From the IMG/VR virus record IMGVR_UViG_3300015370_000013, positions 31,717 through 95,716 of that record: 64,000 nucleotides of DNA; one strand, 5' to 3'. The translations under genes and the position numbers were made by a program. The DNA is from a virus. Below the pieces are notes generated by a model. It saw nothing but the letters and a program-made list of their open reading frames with translations, ran no database searches and was not told the origin of the DNA. Numbering within the stretch: the first letter of the stretch is position 1; each line of letters begins with the position of its first letter. Shown piece by piece: positions 16,789-62,845 of this stretch.

Positions 16789-17430
16789 ATGAAACGCACA
16801 ATGTTCTACGCCGCAGTCTTCGTCCTTTGCCTTGCTGTGTCCCCCCTGGTTTTTGCACAGGACGCCGCACCCAAGAAGGACGCTGTGGTTCAGGTCGCCC
16901 CCGTCAAGGACGCGGCGGCACCCGCACCTACGCCGATTCCTGCACCCGTAGCCACGATCACCCCCGTCGTTGCTCCCGTTGCTGAGACAACCCAAACCTG
17001 GTGGCAAGCACTGCTGCTCCCCGTTCTCAGTGCGCTGGGCCTCGCGCTCGCCGCGTTCCTGACTGTCGGTCTACGCAAACTGGTACAGCTCATCGAGCGG
17101 AAATGGAGTATCGATATCCCCAACGCAGTGGAGAACCAAATCTCTATACAGGCGCAGCTGCTACTCGCTTGGGCAGAAGAGAAAGCAGAGAACCGGCTCT
17201 TGAACGGTGATGGTAAACCCACACCGGGTGCGGAGAAGATCACGTCTGTAGTTAACGCTTTGGAAGCCTTCGTCGCAGCACGTGGTTGGAGTAAAGAATG
17301 GCAACGTGATAAGCTGGAGATGTTAGCTGAAGGCATCCTACACATGGAACGTAGCGATAACGCAGGCATCGGGACTACCAGCGGTGACCGAAAAGTACGT
17401 TTGGACGCCGTGGTGAAAAGCGAAAAATGA
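16789..17430 (+). CDS. Membrane protein, possibly holin (LL-H-like) with a signal peptide
   Basis: Signal peptide ending VFA, Pro/Ala linker, one TM helix, AEEKA...GAEK segment; strong RBS. Confidence 0.5.
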   Translation: MKRTMFYAAVFVLCLAVSPLVFAQDAAPKKDAVVQVAPVKDAAAPAPTPIPAPVATITPVVAPVAETTQTWWQALLLPVLSALGLALAAFLTVGLRKLVQLIERKWSIDIPNAVENQISIQAQLLLAWAEEKAENRLLNGDGKPTPGAEKITSVVNALEAFVAARGWSKEWQRDKLEMLAEGILHMERSDNAGIGTTSGDRKVRLDAVVKSEK

Positions 17431-17735
17431 TCCACACAGCTTCGTACAAACAAGGTGCTCTTCGAGCGCTGGACGACCTCGGGATGAATCTGGAGGAGCT
17501 ACGTGCTCCGTATCCCAGTAAAAATCCGGAGTTACCTGCGGAACGGTTAAGCCGCATGTTACAGAAGTCTGAAGAAACGGACATACCCAGGCACATTGCA
17601 CCCGATAATAAGGGTAGTTACCGTGAGGACCGACTTGACCGACCGGTTACCTGGAGTGCACCTACGAATATCTCCAACATGTACAACGGTCAGCGCGTTC
17701 CTGGTCTCATGCTACCGGGGAGTCCTCGAAGCTGA
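17427..17735 (+). CDS. Small putative virion protein with tag motif
   Basis: N-terminal SYKQGALRALDDLG. Confidence 0.65.
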   Translation: MIHTASYKQGALRALDDLGMNLEELRAPYPSKNPELPAERLSRMLQKSEETDIPRHIAPDNKGSYREDRLDRPVTWSAPTNISNMYNGQRVPGLMLPGSPRS

Positions 17736-19501
17736 TGCCCCCCACAACCCTCGGTCTGCTACTACTAAACGACGTCCTACCTGCAGAATACCAAATCAAA
17801 GGATCCATCTCCAAGAAGCAACTTCAGGGGATGATGACCGAACTGGCGCGAACCGATCCTCAGCAGTACGTCAAAACGATCAGCACACTCAAACGCGTTG
17901 GCGACGCAGTTGCAACAGACGTCGGCATAACTGTAGGGCTGGACGACATCGAACCCGATCGGAAAGTACGTGATGCGATTTTGGAACCGGCTCTAGCGCG
18001 GATAAAGAAAACAACAAATGTAGCTGAGCGAATCAAAATTGTCGAAGCAACACAAAAACTTCTGTTGGAGAGCACCAAGAAACATCCGGGACAAATGACC
18101 CCCATGGCGTTGAGCGGCGCACGCGGCAACATTGCCGCACTCATGCGCACTGTAACATCACCCGCCGCAGCTCAAGACGAAGCAGGGCGCACGATACCGT
18201 GGCTCATCAGTAAAAGCTACGCCGAGGGGTTGAAACCCGCAGACGCCTGGACGGCACTTACTGAGTCCCGGCGTAACGCGATTGCCAGTTTCACCTCTGT
18301 CGCTGCCCCTGGAGAAATTAACAAGATCATTGTCAACAACATGTCCGACCAAATGATCACCATCCCCGACTGTGGTACCAAGAACGGCATCGTTGTAGAC
18401 GCAGCACATGCAATAGACCGCTACACAGCGGAAACCGGGCAACTGGTCACCCCACAGGACACGCAGAAGAAAACACAGTTTAAAGTACGCTCCCCTATGA
18501 CCTGTGAAGCACCGGACGGTATCTGTCAAAAGTGTTACGGACTTAACACCAAAGGTAACAACCCTGCGTTGGGCACAAACGTAGGTATAATCGCAGCACA
18601 CGCTATGGGTGAACCCGTAACACAGATGGCTCTGAGTGCTAAACACGGCGGAAGCGTCGCATACGGTGCTAAACCGACGTTGTCGGGGTTATCTGGTCTC
18701 AAACAAATCACTGAAATCCCCCAAGCATTCTTAAACGAGGCGACGTTATCACCTGCACGTGGCACGGTCTCTGCGATTAAAAAAGCGCCACAGGGTGGTT
18801 ACTACGTCCATGTTCAAGATCACCAAGAGTATGTCCCACCGAACTTGCGTGTGACTGTTCACCTCGGAGATAAAGTACAGGCTGGAGATGTTTTGTCTGA
18901 AGGGATTCCGAAGCCTGATAAAATCATCAAGTACAAAGGGTTGGGTGCCGGACGTAAATACTTGACCGAGCAGTTGCACGGGATTTACCAACGAGAGGGG
19001 GTTGACCTGGACCGTCGCCACATCGAGCTTCTCGCCAAGACGGACCTGAATTACATCCGTATAATGGATCGTGACAGTTCCGCTTTGGGCGTCCTACGTG
19101 GAGACATTGTGGACTACAATCAGTTCCGTAAACATCTGGCCAGTACAGCAAAAACAGTTCCGATAGCCGAGGCCCGAGGAAAGACGTTGGGGAACAACGT
19201 GCTACATCACGTTGCAGGGACCCGAGTTACGGGAGATATGTTGCGTGAATTCACACGGAACAATATTCAAACGGTACCAATCGCAGCTCGTGCTATACTC
19301 CACGAACCTGTGATGAAACCCATCAGCCGCACACCTCTACTGCACCCTGACTTCTTGGCCCGTTTGGCCCACCGCAATCTGAAAACCACCCTTTTGGAGG
19401 GTGCAGCTTTTGGCGACCAGTCCAATTTACATGGAACCCACCCCATCCCGGCCTTCATCTTTGGTGAGGAGTTTGGCGAGGGGCCGAACAATCGCTATTA
19501 A
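17735..19501 (+). CDS. Phage RNA polymerase beta' C-terminal subunit
   Basis: SGARG, SYAEGL, DCGT, VRSPMTC...ICQKCYG, GEPVTQ...KHGG (trigger loop), RRHIELL. Confidence 0.92.
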   Translation: MPPTTLGLLLLNDVLPAEYQIKGSISKKQLQGMMTELARTDPQQYVKTISTLKRVGDAVATDVGITVGLDDIEPDRKVRDAILEPALARIKKTTNVAERIKIVEATQKLLLESTKKHPGQMTPMALSGARGNIAALMRTVTSPAAAQDEAGRTIPWLISKSYAEGLKPADAWTALTESRRNAIASFTSVAAPGEINKIIVNNMSDQMITIPDCGTKNGIVVDAAHAIDRYTAETGQLVTPQDTQKKTQFKVRSPMTCEAPDGICQKCYGLNTKGNNPALGTNVGIIAAHAMGEPVTQMALSAKHGGSVAYGAKPTLSGLSGLKQITEIPQAFLNEATLSPARGTVSAIKKAPQGGYYVHVQDHQEYVPPNLRVTVHLGDKVQAGDVLSEGIPKPDKIIKYKGLGAGRKYLTEQLHGIYQREGVDLDRRHIELLAKTDLNYIRIMDRDSSALGVLRGDIVDYNQFRKHLASTAKTVPIAEARGKTLGNNVLHHVAGTRVTGDMLREFTRNNIQTVPIAARAILHEPVMKPISRTPLLHPDFLARLAHRNLKTTLLEGAAFGDQSNLHGTHPIPAFIFGEEFGEGPNNRY

Positions 19502-19523
19502 AAGACTTGGAAATTGAGAATAC

Positions 19524-19552
19524 TTGACATCTAGGTTGATCCCCTGTACTTT
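19524..19552 (+). promoter_or_regulatory. sigma70-like promoter
   Basis: TTGACA-N17-TACTTT; predicted start about 19559, at the first hairpin of RNA A. Confidence 0.7.
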
Positions 19553-19559
19553 TTAAAAG

Positions 19560-19696
19560 ATCGCAGCCTATGCGATAACAGCCCAGTGCCAAGGAAGCTC
19601 TGGTTTTGACCTTAAAAATCAAAACGAAACTGCCTTTTGATTGGGAATTGAGCATTTGTGTTAACTAAGGTTGACATGGTTTCAGTCTCGAATGGG
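19560..19696 (+). ncRNA. Structured RNA A, divergent homologue of the TnpB omegaRNA-like scaffold
   Basis: Shares GAAGCTCTG...GAAACTG core with copies B and C; flanking stems differ in sequence but keep pairing. Confidence 0.6.
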
Positions 19697-19723
19697 ATAT
19701 ATTTAGAGGGCCTAATCTCCAAG

Positions 19724-19895
19724 GAGTGCGGTTTGTTCATCGATACGATAAACCTTTCAAGACTAGGGGCAGGTAGCTCCGATGTTAAGCCGGTGAAGAT
19801 AGAAGCTCTGACTGATCGAAATTTGGTCAGTGAAACTGATGTCTACGAAGCCGGAACAGTGCTTGGGTAAATTTGTCCAAGTGTCTGAAACCAGG
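19724..19895 (+). ncRNA. Decayed tnpB 3' remnant with omegaRNA-like scaffold B (19766-19895)
   Basis: Translates ECG...INLSRL...VKPVKIEAL...EAG; near-copy of 43069-43215 on the minus strand. Confidence 0.7.
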
Positions 19896-19904
19896 ACAGT
19901 CGTC

Positions 19905-21221
19905 ATGGCACAAACTAACCTTTTCAAACGCGCCTACGTTCGGGGCATCAATGATGAACTGGTACGCCTCGGAGCCCTCCGTTACCCATCGAAGACAGCG
20001 GCTGATGAAGTGGCTGATGGTGTTGCCGAAATGATGCCCGTCGATCCGGCAGTGGAACTAGCGCCTGAGGAAGCACCGGCAGGTATTGAGGGTGCACCAG
20101 GTGCAGGTGTTTCTCCCGACACCGCTGCGGAGGTCGCCGCCACACTGGTCGAGTCGGCACAGCAGCTGATGGCCGAAGCGGGACCCCCTGCCATGCCCGG
20201 AGGCGAAGTTCCCGTTCAAGCCCCCGAAGAGGCACTGAAAACCTCTGCTGCTGCGGATCTGAATACTCGTGCGAGTATGCAAGCCGAAGCTGTCATGGTG
20301 AAAGCCGCGTCCGAGGTGAAGCGAGCAATGGGATCTACCATCGAGGGCGGAGACAAGGGGAACACCTTGGCCGACGCTATCGCAGGTGAATCTGTGATGG
20401 AAGCTCGGAACAGACCCGCAGGCATGTACAACCTGGGTGTAGGCAATACACAGTACCCGGTAGGTGAGGGCGCAGTGGGTACCGAACAAGTTCCCGCACC
20501 AAACGCCCCCGCTGAGGATGGTACTGGCGCGTCCAGCAACTCCATCATCGAGCAGGCAAAGGCCGGTAGCTGGTTGAATGGCATCATCCACAAGCTCGCC
20601 ATGGGCGCGACCATCGAGGGCGGCGATAAGGGAAACACCCTGACCCAAGCTGCGGGTGTGACCGGCGAAGCCAAGATCGAAGCTGATCGGCGTCCCGATG
20701 GCTACGCCACAAATAGCCTCGGTCAAACCGCGCTACCTGTCACACTCGCCGCTGTGGTGGGTACGGAGCAGGACCACCCAGATATGCCCGGTGAAAGGGG
20801 CACTGGTGCTTCAAGCAACTCCGTCACCGAGCACACTGACAAAGCGGCGTTCGTCCGATTGTTCAAAAAAACCGCTTCATCCGTCGCGCACTTCCTACCG
20901 GAAGGCATGTCCGACGCACAGAAAATCGCACATGTCCGTCAAATGATGGGTCAGACCACCGCTGAGCGGAACATCTACCTGGGTTCGCTACACAAGAACG
21001 CAGGTACCGGCATCAAGCAAGCCATGGCTCTCATCCAGGCACACAGCAAAGCTGCTGAGGATATGCCCGAAGCCCTGGCCGCTGCCATGGTGGGCAAGGA
21101 AGAGGAGTGTGATAAGGATAAGAAAGACAAGAAGGACGAGAAGGACGAGAAGGAGAAAGAAGCCGGTCTCGACATCCTCGCACGAATTCGTGAGTTCAAC
21201 ACCACACTAGCACGACGCTAG
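19905..21221 (+). CDS. Putative scaffold/inner-core head protein with internal duplication
   Basis: Acidic, Ala-rich; N-terminal AYVRGINDELVRLG; two copies of AMGxTIEGGDKGNTL...GTGASSNS; many KxA motifs. Confidence 0.65.
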   Translation: MAQTNLFKRAYVRGINDELVRLGALRYPSKTAADEVADGVAEMMPVDPAVELAPEEAPAGIEGAPGAGVSPDTAAEVAATLVESAQQLMAEAGPPAMPGGEVPVQAPEEALKTSAAADLNTRASMQAEAVMVKAASEVKRAMGSTIEGGDKGNTLADAIAGESVMEARNRPAGMYNLGVGNTQYPVGEGAVGTEQVPAPNAPAEDGTGASSNSIIEQAKAGSWLNGIIHKLAMGATIEGGDKGNTLTQAAGVTGEAKIEADRRPDGYATNSLGQTALPVTLAAVVGTEQDHPDMPGERGTGASSNSVTEHTDKAAFVRLFKKTASSVAHFLPEGMSDAQKIAHVRQMMGQTTAERNIYLGSLHKNAGTGIKQAMALIQAHSKAAEDMPEALAAAMVGKEEECDKDKKDKKDEKDEKEKEAGLDILARIREFNTTLARR

Positions 21222-21293
21222 CTTCCGCGTTCGGCATCGCAGCCCGCCCCGGTGTCTGGCGGCAACTCGCGCCTACCCGGTAGGAGATGGCGC

Positions 21294-21524
21294 ATGAGAT
21301 TGTCTACAGAGATCTTTAAAATCGCAGCCCAAATGATCGAAGACCAACGTCTTCCTCAAACCATGGACGCCACCACGTCTCCCGACGAACAGGCCGGTGT
21401 TAATCTGGGGAATCCGGGAAGATCCGCGCTTTCTTTACTCGGTAAAGTCCCACGCTTTACCGCCCGAGAACCAGACCCGAAGGTTGTCCTGCCTTCTGGG
21501 GGTGGAGAGGCCGCGGGACAATGA
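21294..21524 (+). CDS. Hypothetical protein
   Basis: AGGAG RBS; coupled to the next gene. Confidence 0.55.
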   Translation: MRLSTEIFKIAAQMIEDQRLPQTMDATTSPDEQAGVNLGNPGRSALSLLGKVPRFTAREPDPKVVLPSGGGEAAGQ

Positions 21525-22120
21525 ATCTCCAACAGCTAAATACCCCCGCGGGGATGCAGCAACTAGTCGCTGTTACAGGAGGGGCACGTAGCCCTTACGC
21601 CGCGCCGGAGATGCAGAGCGCTACACACTCCGTGCTTAGCAATGCCCTACGTGAAAATCCAGCACTAGCCACCACCACCGTGGTCATTCGCCCCGGTTTC
21701 CCTAACGCGTACTATAACGTGAACAAAAATGAAATCGTGTTGGGGATTGTAGATCCTAACGTACTCGCACATGAACTGGAACATGCGGACAGCATGCAGC
21801 AGCACGGGTTGTACCGTAAGGTGTTGCAAATCGCACACGGCGTGTCCCAGCTCAACCACCTCGCTGCGCTACCCACTGTGCTTGCCCTACGCACATTTTT
21901 AAAGGATAAAGGACAGCGAGATGATATCCTTAAAACACTAGCCGCGGTCTCGGCAGCAGCTGCAGCCCCCGGACTAATGGAAGAAGCGAGTGCAAATATA
22001 GGTGCAGTACGGAACAGTCCCAATAAACTTGAAGCAATACGTACACTGGGTCCTGGATTTATGGCACATATTGCAAGCGGTATGTCCCCCAGTTTGATTT
22101 ACCAGCTCGGGAGAATGTAG
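21521..22120 (+). CDS. Putative zincin metallopeptidase
   Basis: NAYY...LAHELEH...EEASA. Confidence 0.6.
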   Translation: MNLQQLNTPAGMQQLVAVTGGARSPYAAPEMQSATHSVLSNALRENPALATTTVVIRPGFPNAYYNVNKNEIVLGIVDPNVLAHELEHADSMQQHGLYRKVLQIAHGVSQLNHLAALPTVLALRTFLKDKGQRDDILKTLAAVSAAAAAPGLMEEASANIGAVRNSPNKLEAIRTLGPGFMAHIASGMSPSLIYQLGRM

Positions 22121-24604
22121 ATGAGAAAACTAGCCGCACCACTGTCGCCGCGTACCCAGGGCTTCATGCAAGGGCTCCCTACGAGAGACGAAGAAAAGCA
22201 GCTGTTCGAGCAGGGATTATCGCAGATGGCGTATAACGTCCTGACGTCTCGTTTTCCAGACCTACTCCCTGAAGTAATAACCTTCCGCATTCTGGATACC
22301 GACGTGGATAAGGGCGTCGGTGTTGGTGCCTTCGTGGTACAGCACGGAACGGACACGTTGTATATTCCGGTTATCATGTCCGACAACCAAATTAAACCAC
22401 TAGACATGTTTTATCATAAAGCTCTAAACGTGTTCCTGCCCCTCAACAACGACTGGTTAGATGAAGTACAGCAGCTTACCCTCGACGAGATGGGCAACGA
22501 CGTCGATACGCCTAAATCACTACAACGTGATGTAGACACACGCCATGTAATGGTGCCGCCTACAGCGGGGCGTTTTGCATACGCTGCAGCACGAGGGACA
22601 GGCGCACCAGACATCAAAGCTGATCTTCTACAGATGTTAACGCACCTGCAAACCAAAACTGCTGCGTCCGTGGCGCATCTTCCAACTTTTCTTCAACGAG
22701 CACCTGAAGAGATGCGTACAGCTTTCGCAGATATTCTCCTCAAAAATACAAAACTAGCGTCCAGTGTCAGCCGGATGTACGGACTGGATGAACTCTGCGC
22801 CGCGTTGCAGAAGACCGCTAGTGCCACATCTTCCACAGGTGGTGGTTTGTGGGTCGCCGACGACACCACTACACCCAAGCGCTTAAATGAAATCTTCGGA
22901 GACCAAGCGCCGGAAGCTTTCCAGGGTGTGCGTCGAGATGGTTTTGCCGCCAAGGATACTCGCAAAACCAACAATGTCGCTGTACAGATTCAAACCCCGA
23001 CGAGCCTGCAAGAACCTGCGGACTCAGGGTTCTACGCGGTATTTACAGACAAGGGACAAATGAAACCCGCGTTCGTGATTTGTGACCCTACATCCGTTGA
23101 TCACCACCAATGCTTTAACTTTACTCTTCGTGGCAAACGCCACACTACAACCCCACGACTTGTCATTTTGAATGACGGCAAATACATCCGATGCAGCCGT
23201 CTAATAGGAGAAAGACTCGAAGGAAGTGATGCCAAAAAATCAGACCTTTGGGGTAAACTCCTTGAAGGTTCGCGTGGTGATACGCCCAAGGTCGGTGACC
23301 ACGGAATCTTCGTGTATAAAGCGGGACAAAGTTTCAAAGGTACGAAACCCTTCACGATTCAAACAGCCAACACGGACAGCGTTGGAGTGAAGCGGTTTAC
23401 CTGTGACGTTTACGACCAGACTACCCTCATTCAAGATCCGAAGGGGGTGTTCAAGTCGTTTCACCAACCGTCGCAGACACGGATCATGTACATCCCCCAA
23501 ACGGCACGGTTTATTCGACTGGTTAACCCCAGAGATCAGGAACGCCAAAGTGAGGATGTCCTGCTAAGTGACCCGAAAGCGGTTGCTGAGCTGTTCCAGG
23601 GAGAGATGGTGCGGCGTGCAAAGCCTCTCACCATCAAAAACGCCAGTGGGGGAGAGTTCGTCATCAACAAAACGGAACACCACTACGGTGTCGCTAAAAC
23701 AGCGGAGGCTGTCGCGCGTAGATGGGATATCCCATTCGGTGATGCATTGACCTTAGTAAAACAGGCGGCTATGTACCCGCGCGCCCACGCCAAAGCGTTT
23801 ATCCTGGGTGCTCAAGAACGGGACTTCCTGGTTCGAAACTTCAACGCTCGTATGAAATACGCTCAAGGCCCCGCGATGGACCCCTCGTCCATGATGAATG
23901 GTCAGGGTGCTCCGCCACCACCTCCGCCGCCTCCTGGAGGTATGCCGCCCGAGGGTATGCCTCCTGAAATGATGCCACCGCCGCCGCCGCCACCGCCGTC
24001 TCCGCTGGATATGGCTGTAGGTGAGGCGAATACACAGCTGCAGCAGCAAATGGCGGATCTCCAACAGCAACAAATGGCGTTGGAGAGTCAGGTTCAGACA
24101 CTACAGATGGTGCAACAGCGGGCGCAGGAACTCGCCATGGGCGGGGGAGAAGCAGCGGCAATGGGCGCACCTCCGATGCCTATGCCCGGTGCTGGGGGTG
24201 GAGGTATGGCTGGCGGTGAGGAAATGATGGGTGGCACTGCAACTATGGCCACGGAGACACCCTCCGCTGCAGAAATTCAAAACCAGGTGAACCCTCAGTT
24301 CCTGGAGCAAGCGGCGGAGCTGAACGACACCGGCGTGTTTGATGCTGCTGCCATCTCCAGCATGTCTCAAGCACCCGCGTTCAAAGCGATGGTGTTAGAT
24401 TACGTTCCTGTGCTGGAGCGCAGTCTGGATAACCTGGGGCGCGTCTTACTCACCATGTGGATACAAGAAAGTGAGTTGAAACAAGCGCTAGGCGAAGAAG
24501 AGTATACTGGCCTTGAGGACAGTACACGTAACGTCTTCGAGGGACTCGGTAAACTCATTCTCCAATTAAATCGAAATACCATAGTCCTGGGGGACCTCAA
24601 ATGA
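22121..24604 (+). CDS. Large putative head/inner-core protein
   Basis: 827 aa in the head module; many KxA motifs; Pro/Met/Gln-rich linker. Confidence 0.65.
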   Translation: MRKLAAPLSPRTQGFMQGLPTRDEEKQLFEQGLSQMAYNVLTSRFPDLLPEVITFRILDTDVDKGVGVGAFVVQHGTDTLYIPVIMSDNQIKPLDMFYHKALNVFLPLNNDWLDEVQQLTLDEMGNDVDTPKSLQRDVDTRHVMVPPTAGRFAYAAARGTGAPDIKADLLQMLTHLQTKTAASVAHLPTFLQRAPEEMRTAFADILLKNTKLASSVSRMYGLDELCAALQKTASATSSTGGGLWVADDTTTPKRLNEIFGDQAPEAFQGVRRDGFAAKDTRKTNNVAVQIQTPTSLQEPADSGFYAVFTDKGQMKPAFVICDPTSVDHHQCFNFTLRGKRHTTTPRLVILNDGKYIRCSRLIGERLEGSDAKKSDLWGKLLEGSRGDTPKVGDHGIFVYKAGQSFKGTKPFTIQTANTDSVGVKRFTCDVYDQTTLIQDPKGVFKSFHQPSQTRIMYIPQTARFIRLVNPRDQERQSEDVLLSDPKAVAELFQGEMVRRAKPLTIKNASGGEFVINKTEHHYGVAKTAEAVARRWDIPFGDALTLVKQAAMYPRAHAKAFILGAQERDFLVRNFNARMKYAQGPAMDPSSMMNGQGAPPPPPPPPGGMPPEGMPPEMMPPPPPPPPSPLDMAVGEANTQLQQQMADLQQQQMALESQVQTLQMVQQRAQELAMGGGEAAAMGAPPMPMPGAGGGGMAGGEEMMGGTATMATETPSAAEIQNQVNPQFLEQAAELNDTGVFDAAAISSMSQAPAFKAMVLDYVPVLERSLDNLGRVLLTMWIQESELKQALGEEEYTGLEDSTRNVFEGLGKLILQLNRNTIVLGDLK

Positions 24605-42974: not shown

Positions 42975-42979
42975 AGTCT

Positions 42980-43022
42980 AAAAAAAAAAGAGAGCCCGGT
43001 TACTTACGTAACGAGGCTCTCT
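42980..43022 (-). terminator. Intrinsic terminator downstream of RNA C
   Basis: agagagcc/ggctctct stem with gttac/gtaac apex, then 10 T on the minus strand. Confidence 0.7.
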
Positions 43023-43068
43023 CCGGTCCAAAGACCCGCCCTCGTAGGGGCTCGACCTGCTCCTTCAG

Positions 43069-43198
43069 CCTGGTTTCAGGAACTTGGACAAACTTACCCA
43101 AGTCCTGTTCCGGCTTCACAGACGGCAGTTTCACTGACCAAACTTCGATCAGCCAGAGCTTCCATCTCCACCGGCTTAACATTCGGGTTACCCACCCG
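43069..43198 (-). ncRNA. omegaRNA-like scaffold C
   Basis: Overlaps the tnpB C-terminal tail; homologous to 19766-19895 with compensatory changes. Confidence 0.7.
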
Positions 43199-43270
43199 TA
43201 GCTTCGAAAGGTTTACCGCAGCATTGAAATCTCTGTTGTGTACCACACCGCAGGAAGGACAGACCCGATA
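43094..43270 (-). pseudogene. tnpB: tnpB 3' fragment (IS200/IS605/IS607 family)
   Basis: CPSCGVVHNRDFNAAVNL (zinc-ribbon half plus RuvC-III) only. Confidence 0.8.
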
Positions 43271-43303
43271 GTCCTGACTTTTTAGGATGCAATATACCAA
43301 CAC

Positions 43304-62439: not shown

Positions 62440-62492
62440 CACATTTAGACATCAGACGCAAATAGCCACATGTGCAATGTGGCAACTAAGTT

Positions 62493-62845
62493 TGGACACG
62501 CCGGATTTCGATATCCGGGTCCACAACTGCTCAGCTAATGACTCTACAAGCTTGTCCGCTGATTTATTACCCACCAAAGCGCCCAGCGACAGGCTCCGTG
62601 GTTTCTTTTGCTACCCGCACTTCCAGGACCAACGGTAGCGTGAATCCTTGTCCTGTTCATCGTCGTTCTTATGACCCGTCACAGGCGGGAGAAGCCACAG
62701 AACGGGACTGCGGTTTAGGCAGCCATCGCCAGCTGAATGTTATCGTTGGCATTTGAGGTTGGCATCGTTTTTTAACCCGGAACCACGCCGTCCGGAGCTT
62801 GCATCACTTCGCATCGTACAGCCATGTCGAAGCCAATTCGTGCCC
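62493..62845 (-). ncRNA. ssrA: tmRNA, tag ANDNIQLAMAA* (62750-62715)
   Basis: Acceptor stem GGGCACG/CGTGTCC-A with G3-U70; GGCTTCGAC near the 5' end; T-arm; 353 nt; CCA not encoded. Confidence 0.92.

What the first reader, a model, noticed from the sequence alone, without database searches (positions are those of the whole stretch)
19524..19905. Tandem omegaRNA-like RNAs behind a dedicated promoter, with no tnpB gene
Seen: TTGACA-N17-TACTTT starts transcription at RNA A (19560), followed by RNA B (19766-19895). A shares mainly GAAGCTCTG...GAAACTG with B and C, yet each helix is kept by covariation. The 5' hairpin is atcgca/tgcgat vs ggggc/gctcc vs cgggt/acccg, each with a 5-nt loop. The inner stem is gttttga/tcaaaac vs ctgatc/ggtcag, and a 3' hairpin is present in all three. 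A possible pseudoknot pairs loop CC with 3' GG in A and loop GGT with ACC in B and C. A has no coding remnant, and B ends in AGG that forms the RBS of 19905. Known: TnpB omegaRNA overlaps the tnpB 3' end and takes its guide from flanking DNA. Inference: retained guide RNAs (candidate guides start near 19697 and 19896) for a TnpB or TldR acting in trans, decoys, or a co-opted 5' leader of the head operon.
Basis: partly seen in the sequence, partly recalled or inferred. Interest (0 to 1): 0.8.

Follow-up and report, generated by a model that had tools for sequence, protein, structure and literature searches.

The report
Orphan TnpB guide-RNA remnants in phage
Two leftover right ends of different TnpB "jumping genes", each still encoding a complete guide-RNA scaffold, sit one behind the other in the leader of a conserved gene of an uncultured groundwater phage; this kind of gene-less guide-RNA relic is already known, so the case is well documented but ordinary.

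Summary
A (19559-19698), B (19725-19895) and C (43069-43275, minus strand) are real omegaRNA-coding right ends of TnpB transposons, with compensatory base changes in every helix.

- **The phage does carry tnpB.** An intact 400-aa ISDra2-like TnpB, with an Arc-like RHH gene and an A-type omegaRNA, lies about 44 kb upstream of A, outside the window. A frameshifted B/C-type tnpB probably lies in the unsequenced half.
- **The promoter is not dedicated to A.** It occupies the conserved promoter region of the downstream gene. In 32 related phages that gene follows the RNA-polymerase gene, in eight read out after a 73-111 nt gap. A and B are lineage-specific insertions into this 5' UTR.
- **A and B belong to different families.** A is IS605-group. 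B and C are IS607 family, since a community contig carries serine-recombinase tnpA, tnpB and the same scaffold.

All three copies lack a left end, so they are immobile relics and not PATE-type mini-transposons. B's last bases now form the Shine-Dalgarno sequence of gene 19905.

Whether they still load TnpB in trans is open; I put this at about 0.25. Stand-alone omegaRNAs are known from the literature, and this scan has noted them in phages of at least 14 genomes. This is a new member of a known kind, of moderate to low interest.

The parts
17735..19501 (+). Upstream context gene: RNA polymerase beta'-C-like subunit (588 aa)
   Evidence: Pfam RNA_pol_Rpb1_5 at 2.3e-18 and PHROG RNA polymerase beta subunit. 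Its homolog lies upstream of the p438 homolog in all 32 related loci.
19502..19558 (+). Conserved intergenic/promoter region of gene 19905. It includes ACTTGGAAA...CTTGACA and the sigma-70-like TTGACA-N17-TACTTT (19524-19552). The predicted +1 is at about 19559.
   Evidence: The motif is at 19524. The same ACTTGG-N14-TTGAC(C/A)T.TA...ACTTT..AAAG layout occurs in the short gaps of relatives L007, L011 and L008. The tool's strict consensus scan does not call it.
19559..19698 (+). Element A: a complete 140-nt omegaRNA scaffold of the IS605-group (ISDra2-like) type. It has no left end, and only the last ~13 codons and the stop of tnpB are recognisable.
   Evidence: It aligns end to end with the 3' end of the intact tnpB (T) and with L089. 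It scores 145.9 bits with model R1, though it is a training member. It keeps 34 of 37 consensus pairs. The coding remnant is shown.
19699..19724 (+). Retained piece of the ancestral 5' UTR, which is also the predicted guide of A (ATATTTAGAGGGCCTA...). It ends in AAGGAG, the left half of the ancestral SD.
   Evidence: Homology of A, T and L089 ends at ...GGGAT. The three pieces flanking A and B add up to 93 nt, against gaps of 73-111 nt in relatives. This is an inference.
19725..19759 (+). Element B, tnpB coding remnant (zinc-finger CG ... INL) with a 15-nt deletion across the RuvC-III motif
   Evidence: It translates as ECGLFIDTINLSRLGAGSSDVKPV..., against CGVVHNRDFNAAVNLSKLRVGNPNVKPV... in C.
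19760..19895 (+). Element B: a complete 136-nt omegaRNA scaffold of the IS607-family type. Its right end is GAAACCAGG, and the AGGA across the junction serves as SD of gene 19905.
   Evidence: It scores 153.9 bits with model R2, though it is a training member. It keeps 42 of 44 consensus pairs. It is 84-85% identical to the scaffolds of L127 (an intact IS607) and L128.
19896..19919 (+). Predicted guide of B: the SD-ATG spacer, the start codon and the first 5 codons of gene 19905
   Evidence: Homology among B, C, L127, L128 and L005 stops at CCAG(G). There is no second match in the 95.7-kb record and none in viral contigs.
19905..21221 (+). Downstream gene p438: conserved in this phage family, function unknown
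   Evidence: 196 homologs were found, the top ones (after the window's own protein) 50-56% identical and on contigs of up to 187-207 kb. It has no Pfam or PHROG hit. The AlphaFold2 model is helical and disordered with pLDDT 52.8. Its N-terminus aligns from residue 1-5 in relatives.
43205..43275 (-). Element C, tnpB coding remnant (…YRVCPSCGVVHNRDFNAAVNL…)
   Evidence: Translation is. Pfam Cas12f1-like_TNB scores 28.8 bits in the genome search and 26.0 bits for the peptide.
43069..43204 (-). Element C: a complete IS607-type omegaRNA scaffold
   Evidence: It scores 161 bits with model R2 and keeps 44 of 44 consensus pairs. It is 92% identical over 198 nt to L128 and 90% over 205 nt to L127.
43045..43068 (-). 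Predicted guide of C. It lies on a conserved intergenic motif (GGGGCT(C/T)GACC on the + strand).
   Evidence: The sequence is. The motif is shared with relatives L124 and L125. There is no second match in the record.
42978..43022 (-). Hairpin plus T10, which reads as an intrinsic terminator on the minus strand, downstream of C
   Evidence: The sequence is. The hairpin has a counterpart in L125, but the A10/T10 run is found only in this phage. The tool's terminator scan does not call it.

Best explanation
A and B are 5'-truncated right ends of two unrelated TnpB transposons. They inserted independently into the ~93-nt 5' UTR of a conserved phage gene (p438, start 19905), between its promoter region and its Shine-Dalgarno sequence.

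- **A** comes from an IS605-group, ISDra2-like element, the family of the phage's own intact Arc-TnpB gene.
- **B**, like C at 43 kb, comes from an IS607-family element. This family also occurs in the same kind of groundwater community, both as an autonomous tnpA-tnpB copy and as a frameshifted copy on a phage-like contig.

Each relic has lost its left end and nearly all of tnpB, so none can transpose. Each keeps the whole omegaRNA scaffold, from the 5' hairpin that supplies the pseudoknot strand to the right end.

Today the relics are carried as part of the p438 leader, transcribed from the p438 promoter region. B's terminal ...CCAGG plus the flanking A supplies the SD that the IS607 insertion split.

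Shown: origin, family, boundaries, intact structure, insertion into a conserved UTR, and absence from relatives.

Inferred: transcription as leader, the SD role, and that the relics are mostly passive passengers left by deletional decay. The series frameshifted tnpB, then C, then B suggests that decay. The right end is protected because deleting it would damage the neighbouring start site.
For: **Origin and family**
- A aligns over its whole length to the 3' end of the intact tnpB (T) and to L089.
- T is ISDra2-like, with 8bf8/8exa/8h1j at E about 9e-70 and D/E/D kept. It has all three TnpB Pfam domains and an RHH gene upstream.
- B and C match the right end of L127, which carries a Resolvase+MerR tnpA and a 400-aa tnpB.

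**Insertion into an ancestral UTR**
- The RNA-polymerase gene lies upstream of p438 in 32 of 32 related loci.
- In the eight relatives whose gap was read out it is 73-111 nt, and three of them carry the same promoter-like motif.
- Neither covariance model hits any of 25 related loci.

**No mobility**
- No left-end sequence is present.
- No Y1 transposase or resolvase is found in the 95.7-kb record.

**Decay series**
- L128 carries a stop and a frameshift in the first ~55 codons of tnpB, and its scaffold is 93% identical to C's.
- L128's genes have homologs in complete relatives but not in this half-genome.
- A 22-kb contig with the same loose-end sequence has the phage's depth, 105.6 against 107.9.

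**Leader**
- One 164-nt contig from an RNA library, identical to the window, spans 19827-19990. That covers B's 3' half, the junction, the SD and the start of p438.
Against: - **Clustered truncations.** All three relics, the four mini-elements of phage G002 and the L094 orphan are cut within 0-70 nt upstream of the first scaffold hairpin. None is cut inside the scaffold. Random deletion would not be expected to do this.
- **Structure preserved.** B differs from the intact IS607 scaffold at 22 positions, 15 of them in paired columns, yet only 2 pairs are broken. A keeps 34 of 37 pairs.
- **Position of A.** A's first base lies at the predicted +1 of a promoter.
- **Transcription unit of C.** C has an extended -10-like TGGTATATT upstream and a hairpin-T10 downstream whose T run is specific to this phage.
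- **A cognate protein exists.** A TnpB of A's family is encoded in the same genome.

These points fit continued use as guide RNAs as well as, or better than, pure decay.
Confidence: 0.55

Rival explanations
1. The relics are still working stand-alone omegaRNAs. The p438 leader (and the C unit) would be processed by TnpB into guide RNAs that act in trans. A would use the phage's own ISDra2-like TnpB, and B and C would use an IS607-type TnpB from the host or another copy. Each guide matches the uninterrupted form of its own insertion site. The complex would therefore cut co-infecting relatives that lack the insertion. This would drive the cassette into them (non-restorative homing) or exclude them.
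For: - Stand-alone omegaRNAs work in trans with compatible effectors (Altae-Tran 2021, as summarised in PMC10691335). PATE-like elements encode omegaRNAs that need TnpB in trans (PMC10055086).
- TnpB-driven spread without TnpA, and homing between co-infecting phages or plasmids, has been proposed (PMC13565253).
- TnpB processes its own transcript into omegaRNA (PMC10278001 abstract).
- An intact TnpB of A's family is in the same phage.
- The scaffolds are structurally complete.
- All the relics keep at least the span corresponding to the functional ISDra2 scaffold of 116 nt (PMC10097598).
- Phage G002 has 4 tnpB genes and 8 full scaffolds. Its 4 orphans are a promoter region fused directly to the scaffold hairpin.
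- A starts at a predicted +1.
Against: - A's scaffold is only 64% identical to that of the phage's TnpB, so compatibility is unknown.
- The only B/C-type tnpB traced to the phage family is frameshifted.
- No contig in four runs joins across A or B, so no empty-site allele was seen.
- The TAM is unknown.
- No other target for guides B, C or T was found in the record (A, B, C, T) or in viral contigs (A, B, T). The one outside match of guide A is compatible with chance.
- The structure-preserving changes may predate the truncations.
Confidence: 0.25
2. The relics act as a cis-regulatory leader. The folded A and B scaffolds, or TnpB bound to B (whose guide segment contains the SD spacer and the AUG), would control translation or stability of the p438 mRNA.
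For: - B's predicted guide (19896-19919) covers the spacer, the AUG and the first 5 codons. This is read directly from the sequence.
- The SD is built across B's right end.
- An RNA-library contig spans B and p438.
- The L094 orphan also ends AGGAATCAGG, 5 nt before an ATG.
Against: - Relatives express p438 from a plain 73-111 nt gap without any such element.
- The arrangement is a necessary by-product of IS607 inserting at GG inside the SD.
- No conservation of A or B is seen in relatives.
Confidence: 0.08
3. Two other origins or roles are possible. The relics could be decoys that soak up host TnpB. Alternatively, they could be retro-copies of mature omegaRNAs made by the phage's reverse transcriptase.
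For: - A's boundaries coincide with those expected of a mature omegaRNA, from the 5' hairpin to the right end.
I did not check it.
Against: - B and C carry 35-70 nt of tnpB coding sequence upstream of the scaffold. This fits deletion of DNA, not copying of a processed RNA.
- The G002 orphans are plain internal deletions that keep the left-end region.
- Nothing points to a decoy role.
Confidence: 0.03

Closest known systems
Stand-alone omegaRNAs / PATE-like gene-less IS200/IS605 derivatives (Altae-Tran et al. 2021, as summarised in PMC10691335; Meers et al. 2023, PMC10055086)
   Same: Both are gene-less loci that keep a complete omegaRNA scaffold and a flank-derived guide, in a genome that also encodes a TnpB of the same family elsewhere.
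   Different: The known ones are 'evidently mobilised' mini-transposons with both ends. A, B and C have no left end, are single-copy, have three different left junctions, and are absent from relatives. They are truncated relics embedded in a leader, not mobile mini-elements.
ISDra2 TnpB-omegaRNA (PDB 8bf8/8exa/8h1j; Nakagawa et al. 2023, PMC10097598)
   Same: The phage's intact TnpB is a clear homolog (E about 9e-70, D/E/D kept). The A-type scaffold overlaps the tnpB 3' end, has nested stems, and allows a pairing between a 5' element and the bases just before the guide, where the ISDra2 pseudoknot lies.
   Different: There is no TnpA. An Arc-like RHH gene with a sigma-70-like promoter precedes tnpB. 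No recognisable left end was found in this phage. A is detached from any tnpB.
IS607-family elements (serine-recombinase TnpA + TnpB)
   Same: B and C are 84-93% identical to the right end and omegaRNA of L127 (Resolvase+MerR tnpA, 400-aa tnpB) and L128. Their right ends finish in ...CCAGG. B's site is consistent with insertion at GG inside GGAGG; the GG preference of IS607 is from my own knowledge (Kersulyte et al. 2000) and was not re-read here.
   Different: tnpA, the left end and nearly all of tnpB are gone.
Promoter-fused orphan omegaRNAs of phage G002 (IMGVR_UViG_3300025117_000031), found here
   Same: They have the same scaffold family as A (about 70% identity). In each, tnpB is deleted up to within 2 nt of the 5' hairpin, and a promoter-like region lies upstream.
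   Different: The G002 orphans keep the element's own left-end/promoter region, share one deletion junction, and occur in 4 copies. A has none of that and uses the host gene's promoter region.
TldR (TnpB-like nuclease-dead repressors; PMC10705468)
   Same: Both involve a TnpB-family protein plus a guide RNA in a phage, with guides that lie on promoter or start regions.
   Different: The phage's TnpB keeps its catalytic triad. The guides match only their own flanks. No repressor target was found.

Membership tests
TnpB omegaRNA (right-end guide-RNA scaffold) | Encoded across the 3' end of tnpB and ending at the transposon right end | tested here: met
   A aligns to the last ~35 codons plus 45 nt after the stop of the intact tnpB and of L089, and similarity ends at ...GGGAT. 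B and C align to the 3' ends of L127, L128 and L005, ending at CCAG(G).
TnpB omegaRNA (right-end guide-RNA scaffold) | Conserved multi-stem fold supported by covariation | tested here: met
   The A type has 43 pairs, 14 of them compensatory. The B type has 44 pairs, 8 of them compensatory. A, B and C keep 34/37, 42/44 and 44/44 pairs.
TnpB omegaRNA (right-end guide-RNA scaffold) | Pseudoknot between a 5' element and the bases just 5' of the guide (ISDra2: -5..-3 with -103..-105) | tested here: inconclusive
   A pairing of 3-4 bp is possible in all 13 copies, with one covarying position (CCUA/UGGG against CCCU/AGGG). It is too short for a statistical test. The reference structure is in PMC10097598.
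TnpB omegaRNA (right-end guide-RNA scaffold) | Bound and used by a TnpB protein | not testable with these tools
   This needs RIP-seq or a cleavage assay.
PATE / mobilised stand-alone omegaRNA mini-transposon | Both left end and right end present, with no protein gene | tested here: not met
   Sequence left of A is the conserved UTR of relatives. Sequence left of the B and C scaffolds is tnpB coding remnant, then unrelated flank. No inverted or direct copy of an end was found in the record.
PATE / mobilised stand-alone omegaRNA mini-transposon | Several copies with the same internal junction (evidence of mobilisation) | tested here: not met
   A, B and C have three different junctions and one copy each. 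By contrast, G002 has 4 orphans with one junction.
IS607 family (B, C) | Serine-recombinase TnpA next to tnpB in full-length members with the same ends | tested here: met
   L127 has a 202-aa Resolvase+MerR ORF overlapping a 400-aa TnpB, with a scaffold scoring 153 bits on model R2.
IS605 group / ISDra2-like (A and the intact tnpB) | TnpB homologous to ISDra2 TnpB with an intact RuvC D/E/D | tested here: met
   Chains 8bf8, 8exa and 8h1j match at E about 9e-70 over residues 8-377. The motifs GVDLG, IGIENL and HDRD are present.
IS605 group / ISDra2-like (A and the intact tnpB) | Y1 (HUH) TnpA in the element or the genome | tested here: not met
   PF01797 has no match in the 95.7-kb record, which is 53% complete. 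The element is tnpB-only with an Arc-like RHH gene.
TldR (nuclease-dead TnpB repressor) | RuvC active site lost, and the guide matches a promoter elsewhere | tested here: not met
   The catalytic triad is kept. The guides match only their own flanks in the record.

The most novel reading that the evidence does not exclude
The phage keeps these scaffolds because they work. The abundant p438 leader and the C unit would be cut by TnpB into several guide RNAs. These would direct cleavage of co-infecting relatives at the uninterrupted promoter and start regions. The result would be a gene-less, promoter-fed RNA-guided exclusion or homing system with heterologous guides (IS605-type and IS607-type) in one transcript. 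As a side effect, TnpB bound to B would gate translation of p438.
Probability: 0.12. Interest if true: 0.7.

Novelty: new member of a known kind. Interest (0 to 1): 0.35.

Why it matters
- **If the relics are passive:** this is a clean, well-bounded example of how TnpB elements decay in a large phage. Decay proceeds from the left end inward, with the guide-RNA module lasting longest and its last bases recruited as a ribosome-binding site.
- **If they are active:** a phage could hold cheap extra guides for an RNA-guided nuclease without extra nuclease genes. That bears on how TnpB-type systems spread between co-infecting viruses and how multi-guide systems such as CRISPR arrays could begin.
- **A recurring pattern:** truncations stop at the 5' edge of the scaffold in this phage, in G002 and in L094, and similar orphans are reported by other notes of this scan. 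That pattern could be tested statistically across phages.

Tried and rejected
- **Rfam:** no family matches at 19300-20100, even at E<=10. The only hit above threshold in the window is a tmRNA.
- **Phage GenBank collection:** no DNA match for 17000-23000.
- **First single-protein scan** for p438 relatives in viral contigs found nothing. An alignment-based scan worked.
The 160-200 kb contigs of the nearest p438 homologs therefore could not be read.
- **Pattern GAGCATNNGTGTTAACTAA** gave one chance match (L006).
- **Consensus promoter/terminator scans** call neither the promoter at 19524 nor the hairpin-T10 at 42978-43022.
- **Left end and TAM of the A-type family** could not be fixed. L089, L090 and L091 share no upstream similarity with T. 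The G002 left ends are too variable at their tips.
- **Guide targets:** no second site in the record at <=3 mismatches in 16 nt. Guides B and T have no exact 20-mer in viral contigs. Guide A matches one AT-rich phage lineage without TnpB. I estimate 0.2-0.4 such matches by chance, so I did not treat it as a target.
- **Reads:** no contig of four groundwater runs skips A or B. This says nothing about absence of empty-site alleles.
- **p438 structure:** the model is poor (pLDDT 52.8), so no fold search was run. The 'head operon' label remains unverified.
- **A as a copy of the phage's own omegaRNA:** rejected, since identity is only 64%.
- **A, B and C as one family:** rejected. Model R1 hits C only weakly (28.6 bits) and does not list B.
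Full report
**What is there**

The window is the last 64 kb of a 95.7-kb IMG/VR virus record, which CheckV rates 53% complete. The stretch 18900-20900 is held almost completely by two groundwater metagenome runs. The phage encodes its own multisubunit RNA polymerase and a tmRNA.

Between the RNA-polymerase beta'-C-like gene (17735-19501) and a conserved gene of unknown function (p438, 19905-21221) lies a 403-nt gap. It occurs in none of 100 shuffles. B and C are 84% identical over 150 nt.

**A tnpB gene exists**

A search of the whole record with the TnpB zinc-ribbon family found the remnant at C and an intact 400-aa ORF at G000:C1:5857-7059, minus strand. That ORF lies about 44 kb upstream of A and outside the window. 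I call it T.
- T has all three TnpB Pfam domains.
- It is a clear homolog of ISDra2 TnpB, with 8bf8/8exa/8h1j at E about 9e-70, and it keeps GVDLG, IGIENL and HDRD.
- It is preceded by a 52-aa ribbon-helix-helix ORF and a TTGACG-N17-TATACT motif. This matches the Arc repressor recently described for IS605-family elements (bioRxiv 10.64898/2026.09.24.754181).

**A belongs to T's family**

A (19559-19698) aligns end to end with the 3' end of T, including GTTAACTAA with the stop codon. It also aligns with L089, the 3' end of a TnpB that is 63% identical to T and sits in a 154-kb phage. Similarity in all three stops at ...GTCTCGAAnGGGAT. The right end is therefore at 19698, and the predicted guide starts at 19699.

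RNAalifold gives 43 pairs, 14 of them with changes on both sides. In the tnpB frame A still reads ...KLPFDWELSICVN*, against KLPFGGEPSIRVN* in T, so it does carry a coding remnant. A is 64% identical to T's scaffold and about 70% to the L089 group. It is therefore not a copy of T.

**B and C are IS607 family**

C retains ...YRVCPSCGVVHNRDFNAAVNL... upstream of its scaffold. B retains ECGLFIDTINL..., the same stretch with a 15-nt deletion.

A metagenome scan, using a sequence seen as a loose end in the read-laying, returned two contigs:
- **L127** is 2.1 kb. It carries a 202-aa Resolvase+MerR ORF overlapping an intact 400-aa TnpB, and the same scaffold. This is the IS607 architecture.
- **L128** is 13.5 kb and phage-like. 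It has the same scaffold, 93% identical to C, behind a tnpB with a stop and a frameshift in its first ~55 codons.

L128's other genes have homologs in complete relatives of this phage but not in the 95.7 kb held here. In run X2 a 22-kb contig with L128's loose-end sequence has the same depth as the window's contig, 105.6 against 107.9. The missing half of this phage therefore probably carries that decayed copy. This is an inference.

B, C, L127, L128 and L005 share 44 consensus pairs. B keeps 42 and C keeps 44, while copies linked to intact genes keep 41-42.

**The promoter is the neighbour's, and A and B are insertions**

An alignment-based scan found 32 related loci, and in all of them the RNA-polymerase gene lies upstream of the p438 homolog.
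- In the eight relatives whose gap was read out it is only 73-111 nt. In three of these (L007, L008, L011) it carries ACTTGG-N14-TTGAC(C/A)T.TA...ACTTT..AAAG, followed by about 45 nt and GGAGGA.
- The window has the same left part (19502-19558). It also has a piece ending AAGGAG (19699-19724) and GACAGTCGTC before the ATG. These three pieces add up to 93 nt.
- A and B are thus two separate insertions into one short UTR.
- Neither covariance model finds anything in 25 related loci.

The motif TTGACA-N17-TACTTT puts a predicted +1 at A's first base. However, the -10 position used by relatives (TATATT) reads TCTAGG here, so the promoter may have shifted. I did not pursue this. The tool's strict sigma-70 scan does not call the site.

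B's left junction follows AAGGAG and its right end ...CCAGG abuts ACAG. This is what insertion at GG inside an ancestral GGAGGACAG would leave. The new AGGA across the junction is the only SD-like sequence before the ATG at 19905.

**Transcription**

In four runs laid on 18500-21000, one 164-nt contig from a metatranscriptome library matches 19827-19990 exactly. That covers B's 3' half, the junction and the start of p438. This fits B being part of the p438 leader. It is a single low-depth contig, and DNA carry-over cannot be excluded. No contig skips A or B.

**Comparison with other phages**

- **G002**, the 154-kb record of L089, holds 4 intact tnpB genes and 8 full-length A-type scaffolds. 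Its 4 orphans all share one junction: the region found upstream of the intact genes, including promoter-like hexamers, is fused through ATGAAAG/ATAAAAAG directly to the scaffold's 5' hairpin. These are mobilised, internally deleted mini-elements.
- **L094**, another viral contig, has an orphan of the B-like type ending AGGAATCAGG 5 nt before an ATG, next to an intact tnpB of a different subtype.

Gene-less scaffolds cut just upstream of the first hairpin therefore recur. In ISDra2 the functional scaffold is the last 116 nt, everything 5' of it is not needed, and the pseudoknot pairs -5..-3 with -103..-105 (PMC10097598).

**Which reading**

Stand-alone omegaRNAs that work in trans, and PATE-like elements with omegaRNAs, are established (PMC10691335, PMC10055086). 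Other notes of this scan report orphan scaffolds in phages of at least 14 genomes. What sets A, B and C apart from those is that they have no left end and three different junctions. They are immobile, and no transposase is found in the record.

For passive decay:
- the series frameshifted tnpB, then C, then B;
- the absence of A and B from relatives;
- the lack of an intact cognate TnpB for B and C;
- the fact that removing B's end would destroy the SD.

For continued use:
- every truncation stops short of the scaffold;
- the divergence is structure-preserving;
- A starts at a predicted +1;
- C has an extended -10-like motif and a hairpin whose T10 run is specific to this phage;
- a TnpB of A's family is on board.

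I put passive relic plus leader/SD role at 0.55, active trans guides at 0.25, cis regulation at 0.08, other origins at 0.03, and the rest unassigned.

**Targets**

None of the four predicted guides has a second site in the record. Exact 20-mers of guides B and T are absent from viral contigs. Guide A matches one AT-rich phage lineage, seen as five near-identical contigs, inside a coding sequence. The 5 nt before that match differ from A's own left flank, and the contigs have no TnpB. By my estimate 0.2-0.4 such matches are expected by chance, so this is not evidence of targeting.

**Limits**

- The TAMs are unknown.
- The host is unknown.
- p438 is not identified: it has no family hit, and its model is helical and disordered with pLDDT 52.8. 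'Head operon' is therefore unverified.

Noticed in passing
outside the window: G000:C1:5857-7300, minus strand (= L003:1384-2830, minus strand): The intact 400-aa ISDra2-like TnpB is preceded by a 52-aa RHH (CopG/Arc-like) ORF that overlaps its start, and by TTGACG-N17-TATACT. There is no TnpA and no recognisable left end. Its predicted guide, GGTGATATAATAAGCG, contains a TATAAT just upstream of a 187-aa gene on the same strand.
   Followed up: partly
G002 (IMGVR_UViG_3300025117_000031): L119-L122 and L113, L116-L118: This 154-kb phage has 4 intact TnpB genes and 8 full scaffolds. In most copies the left end begins with an inverted copy of the last ~45 nt of the right end (e.g. ATCCCGTTCGAGATTTAAACC...), which gives terminal inverted repeats. 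That is not what IS200/IS605 ends normally look like.
   Followed up: partly
L129-L133 (five AT-rich viral contigs, 42-92 kb): There is an exact 20-nt match to A's predicted guide (ATATTTAGAGGGCCTAATCT) near the 5' end of a gene. These contigs have no TnpB. The match is compatible with chance, but it is the only outside match of any guide.
   Followed up: partly
window 42978-43022: The hairpin after the 74-aa ORF has a counterpart in relative L125. Only this phage has an A10 run before it, which makes it a hairpin-T10 terminator for the minus strand, downstream of C.
   Followed up: partly
window 19502-19558 compared with L007, L008, L011, L014, L016, L031: Relatives share CTTGGN-N17/18-TA(T/C)(A/G)(A/C/T)T upstream of p438. 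In this phage the -10 position reads TCTAGG, and a new pair, TTGACA-N17-TACTTT, lies 23 nt downstream, directly in front of A.
   Followed up: no
window 43025-43068 (+ strand), L124:3370-3400, L125:1400-1430: A conserved intergenic motif, GGGGCT(C/T)GACC, lies next to C's right end. It resembles the GCTTGACC core of the p438 promoter region. Both A and C sit within about 30 nt of such a motif.
   Followed up: no
window 19905-21221: p438 has an internal duplication of GSTIEGGDKGN...RP.G... (invariant in 22 homologs), and its N-terminal YVRGINDELVRLG matches a tag that another note reports on about 15 genes. Its function is unknown and its predicted structure is helical and disordered.
   Followed up: partly
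window 62492-62845, minus strand: A full-length tmRNA gene is carried by the phage (Rfam RF00023, 95.5 bits). ARAGORN did not call it.
   Followed up: no
L094:1385-1450: The sequence upstream of the intact tnpB in this contig (GCCGTAAAACCGTACCCCTTGTGGGTACGAATGTAAGACGGGTG) resembles the start of a B-type scaffold, that is, a hairpin followed by GAATGTTAAGCCGGTG. It may be another truncated relic or a left end that mimics the scaffold's 5' part.
   Followed up: no
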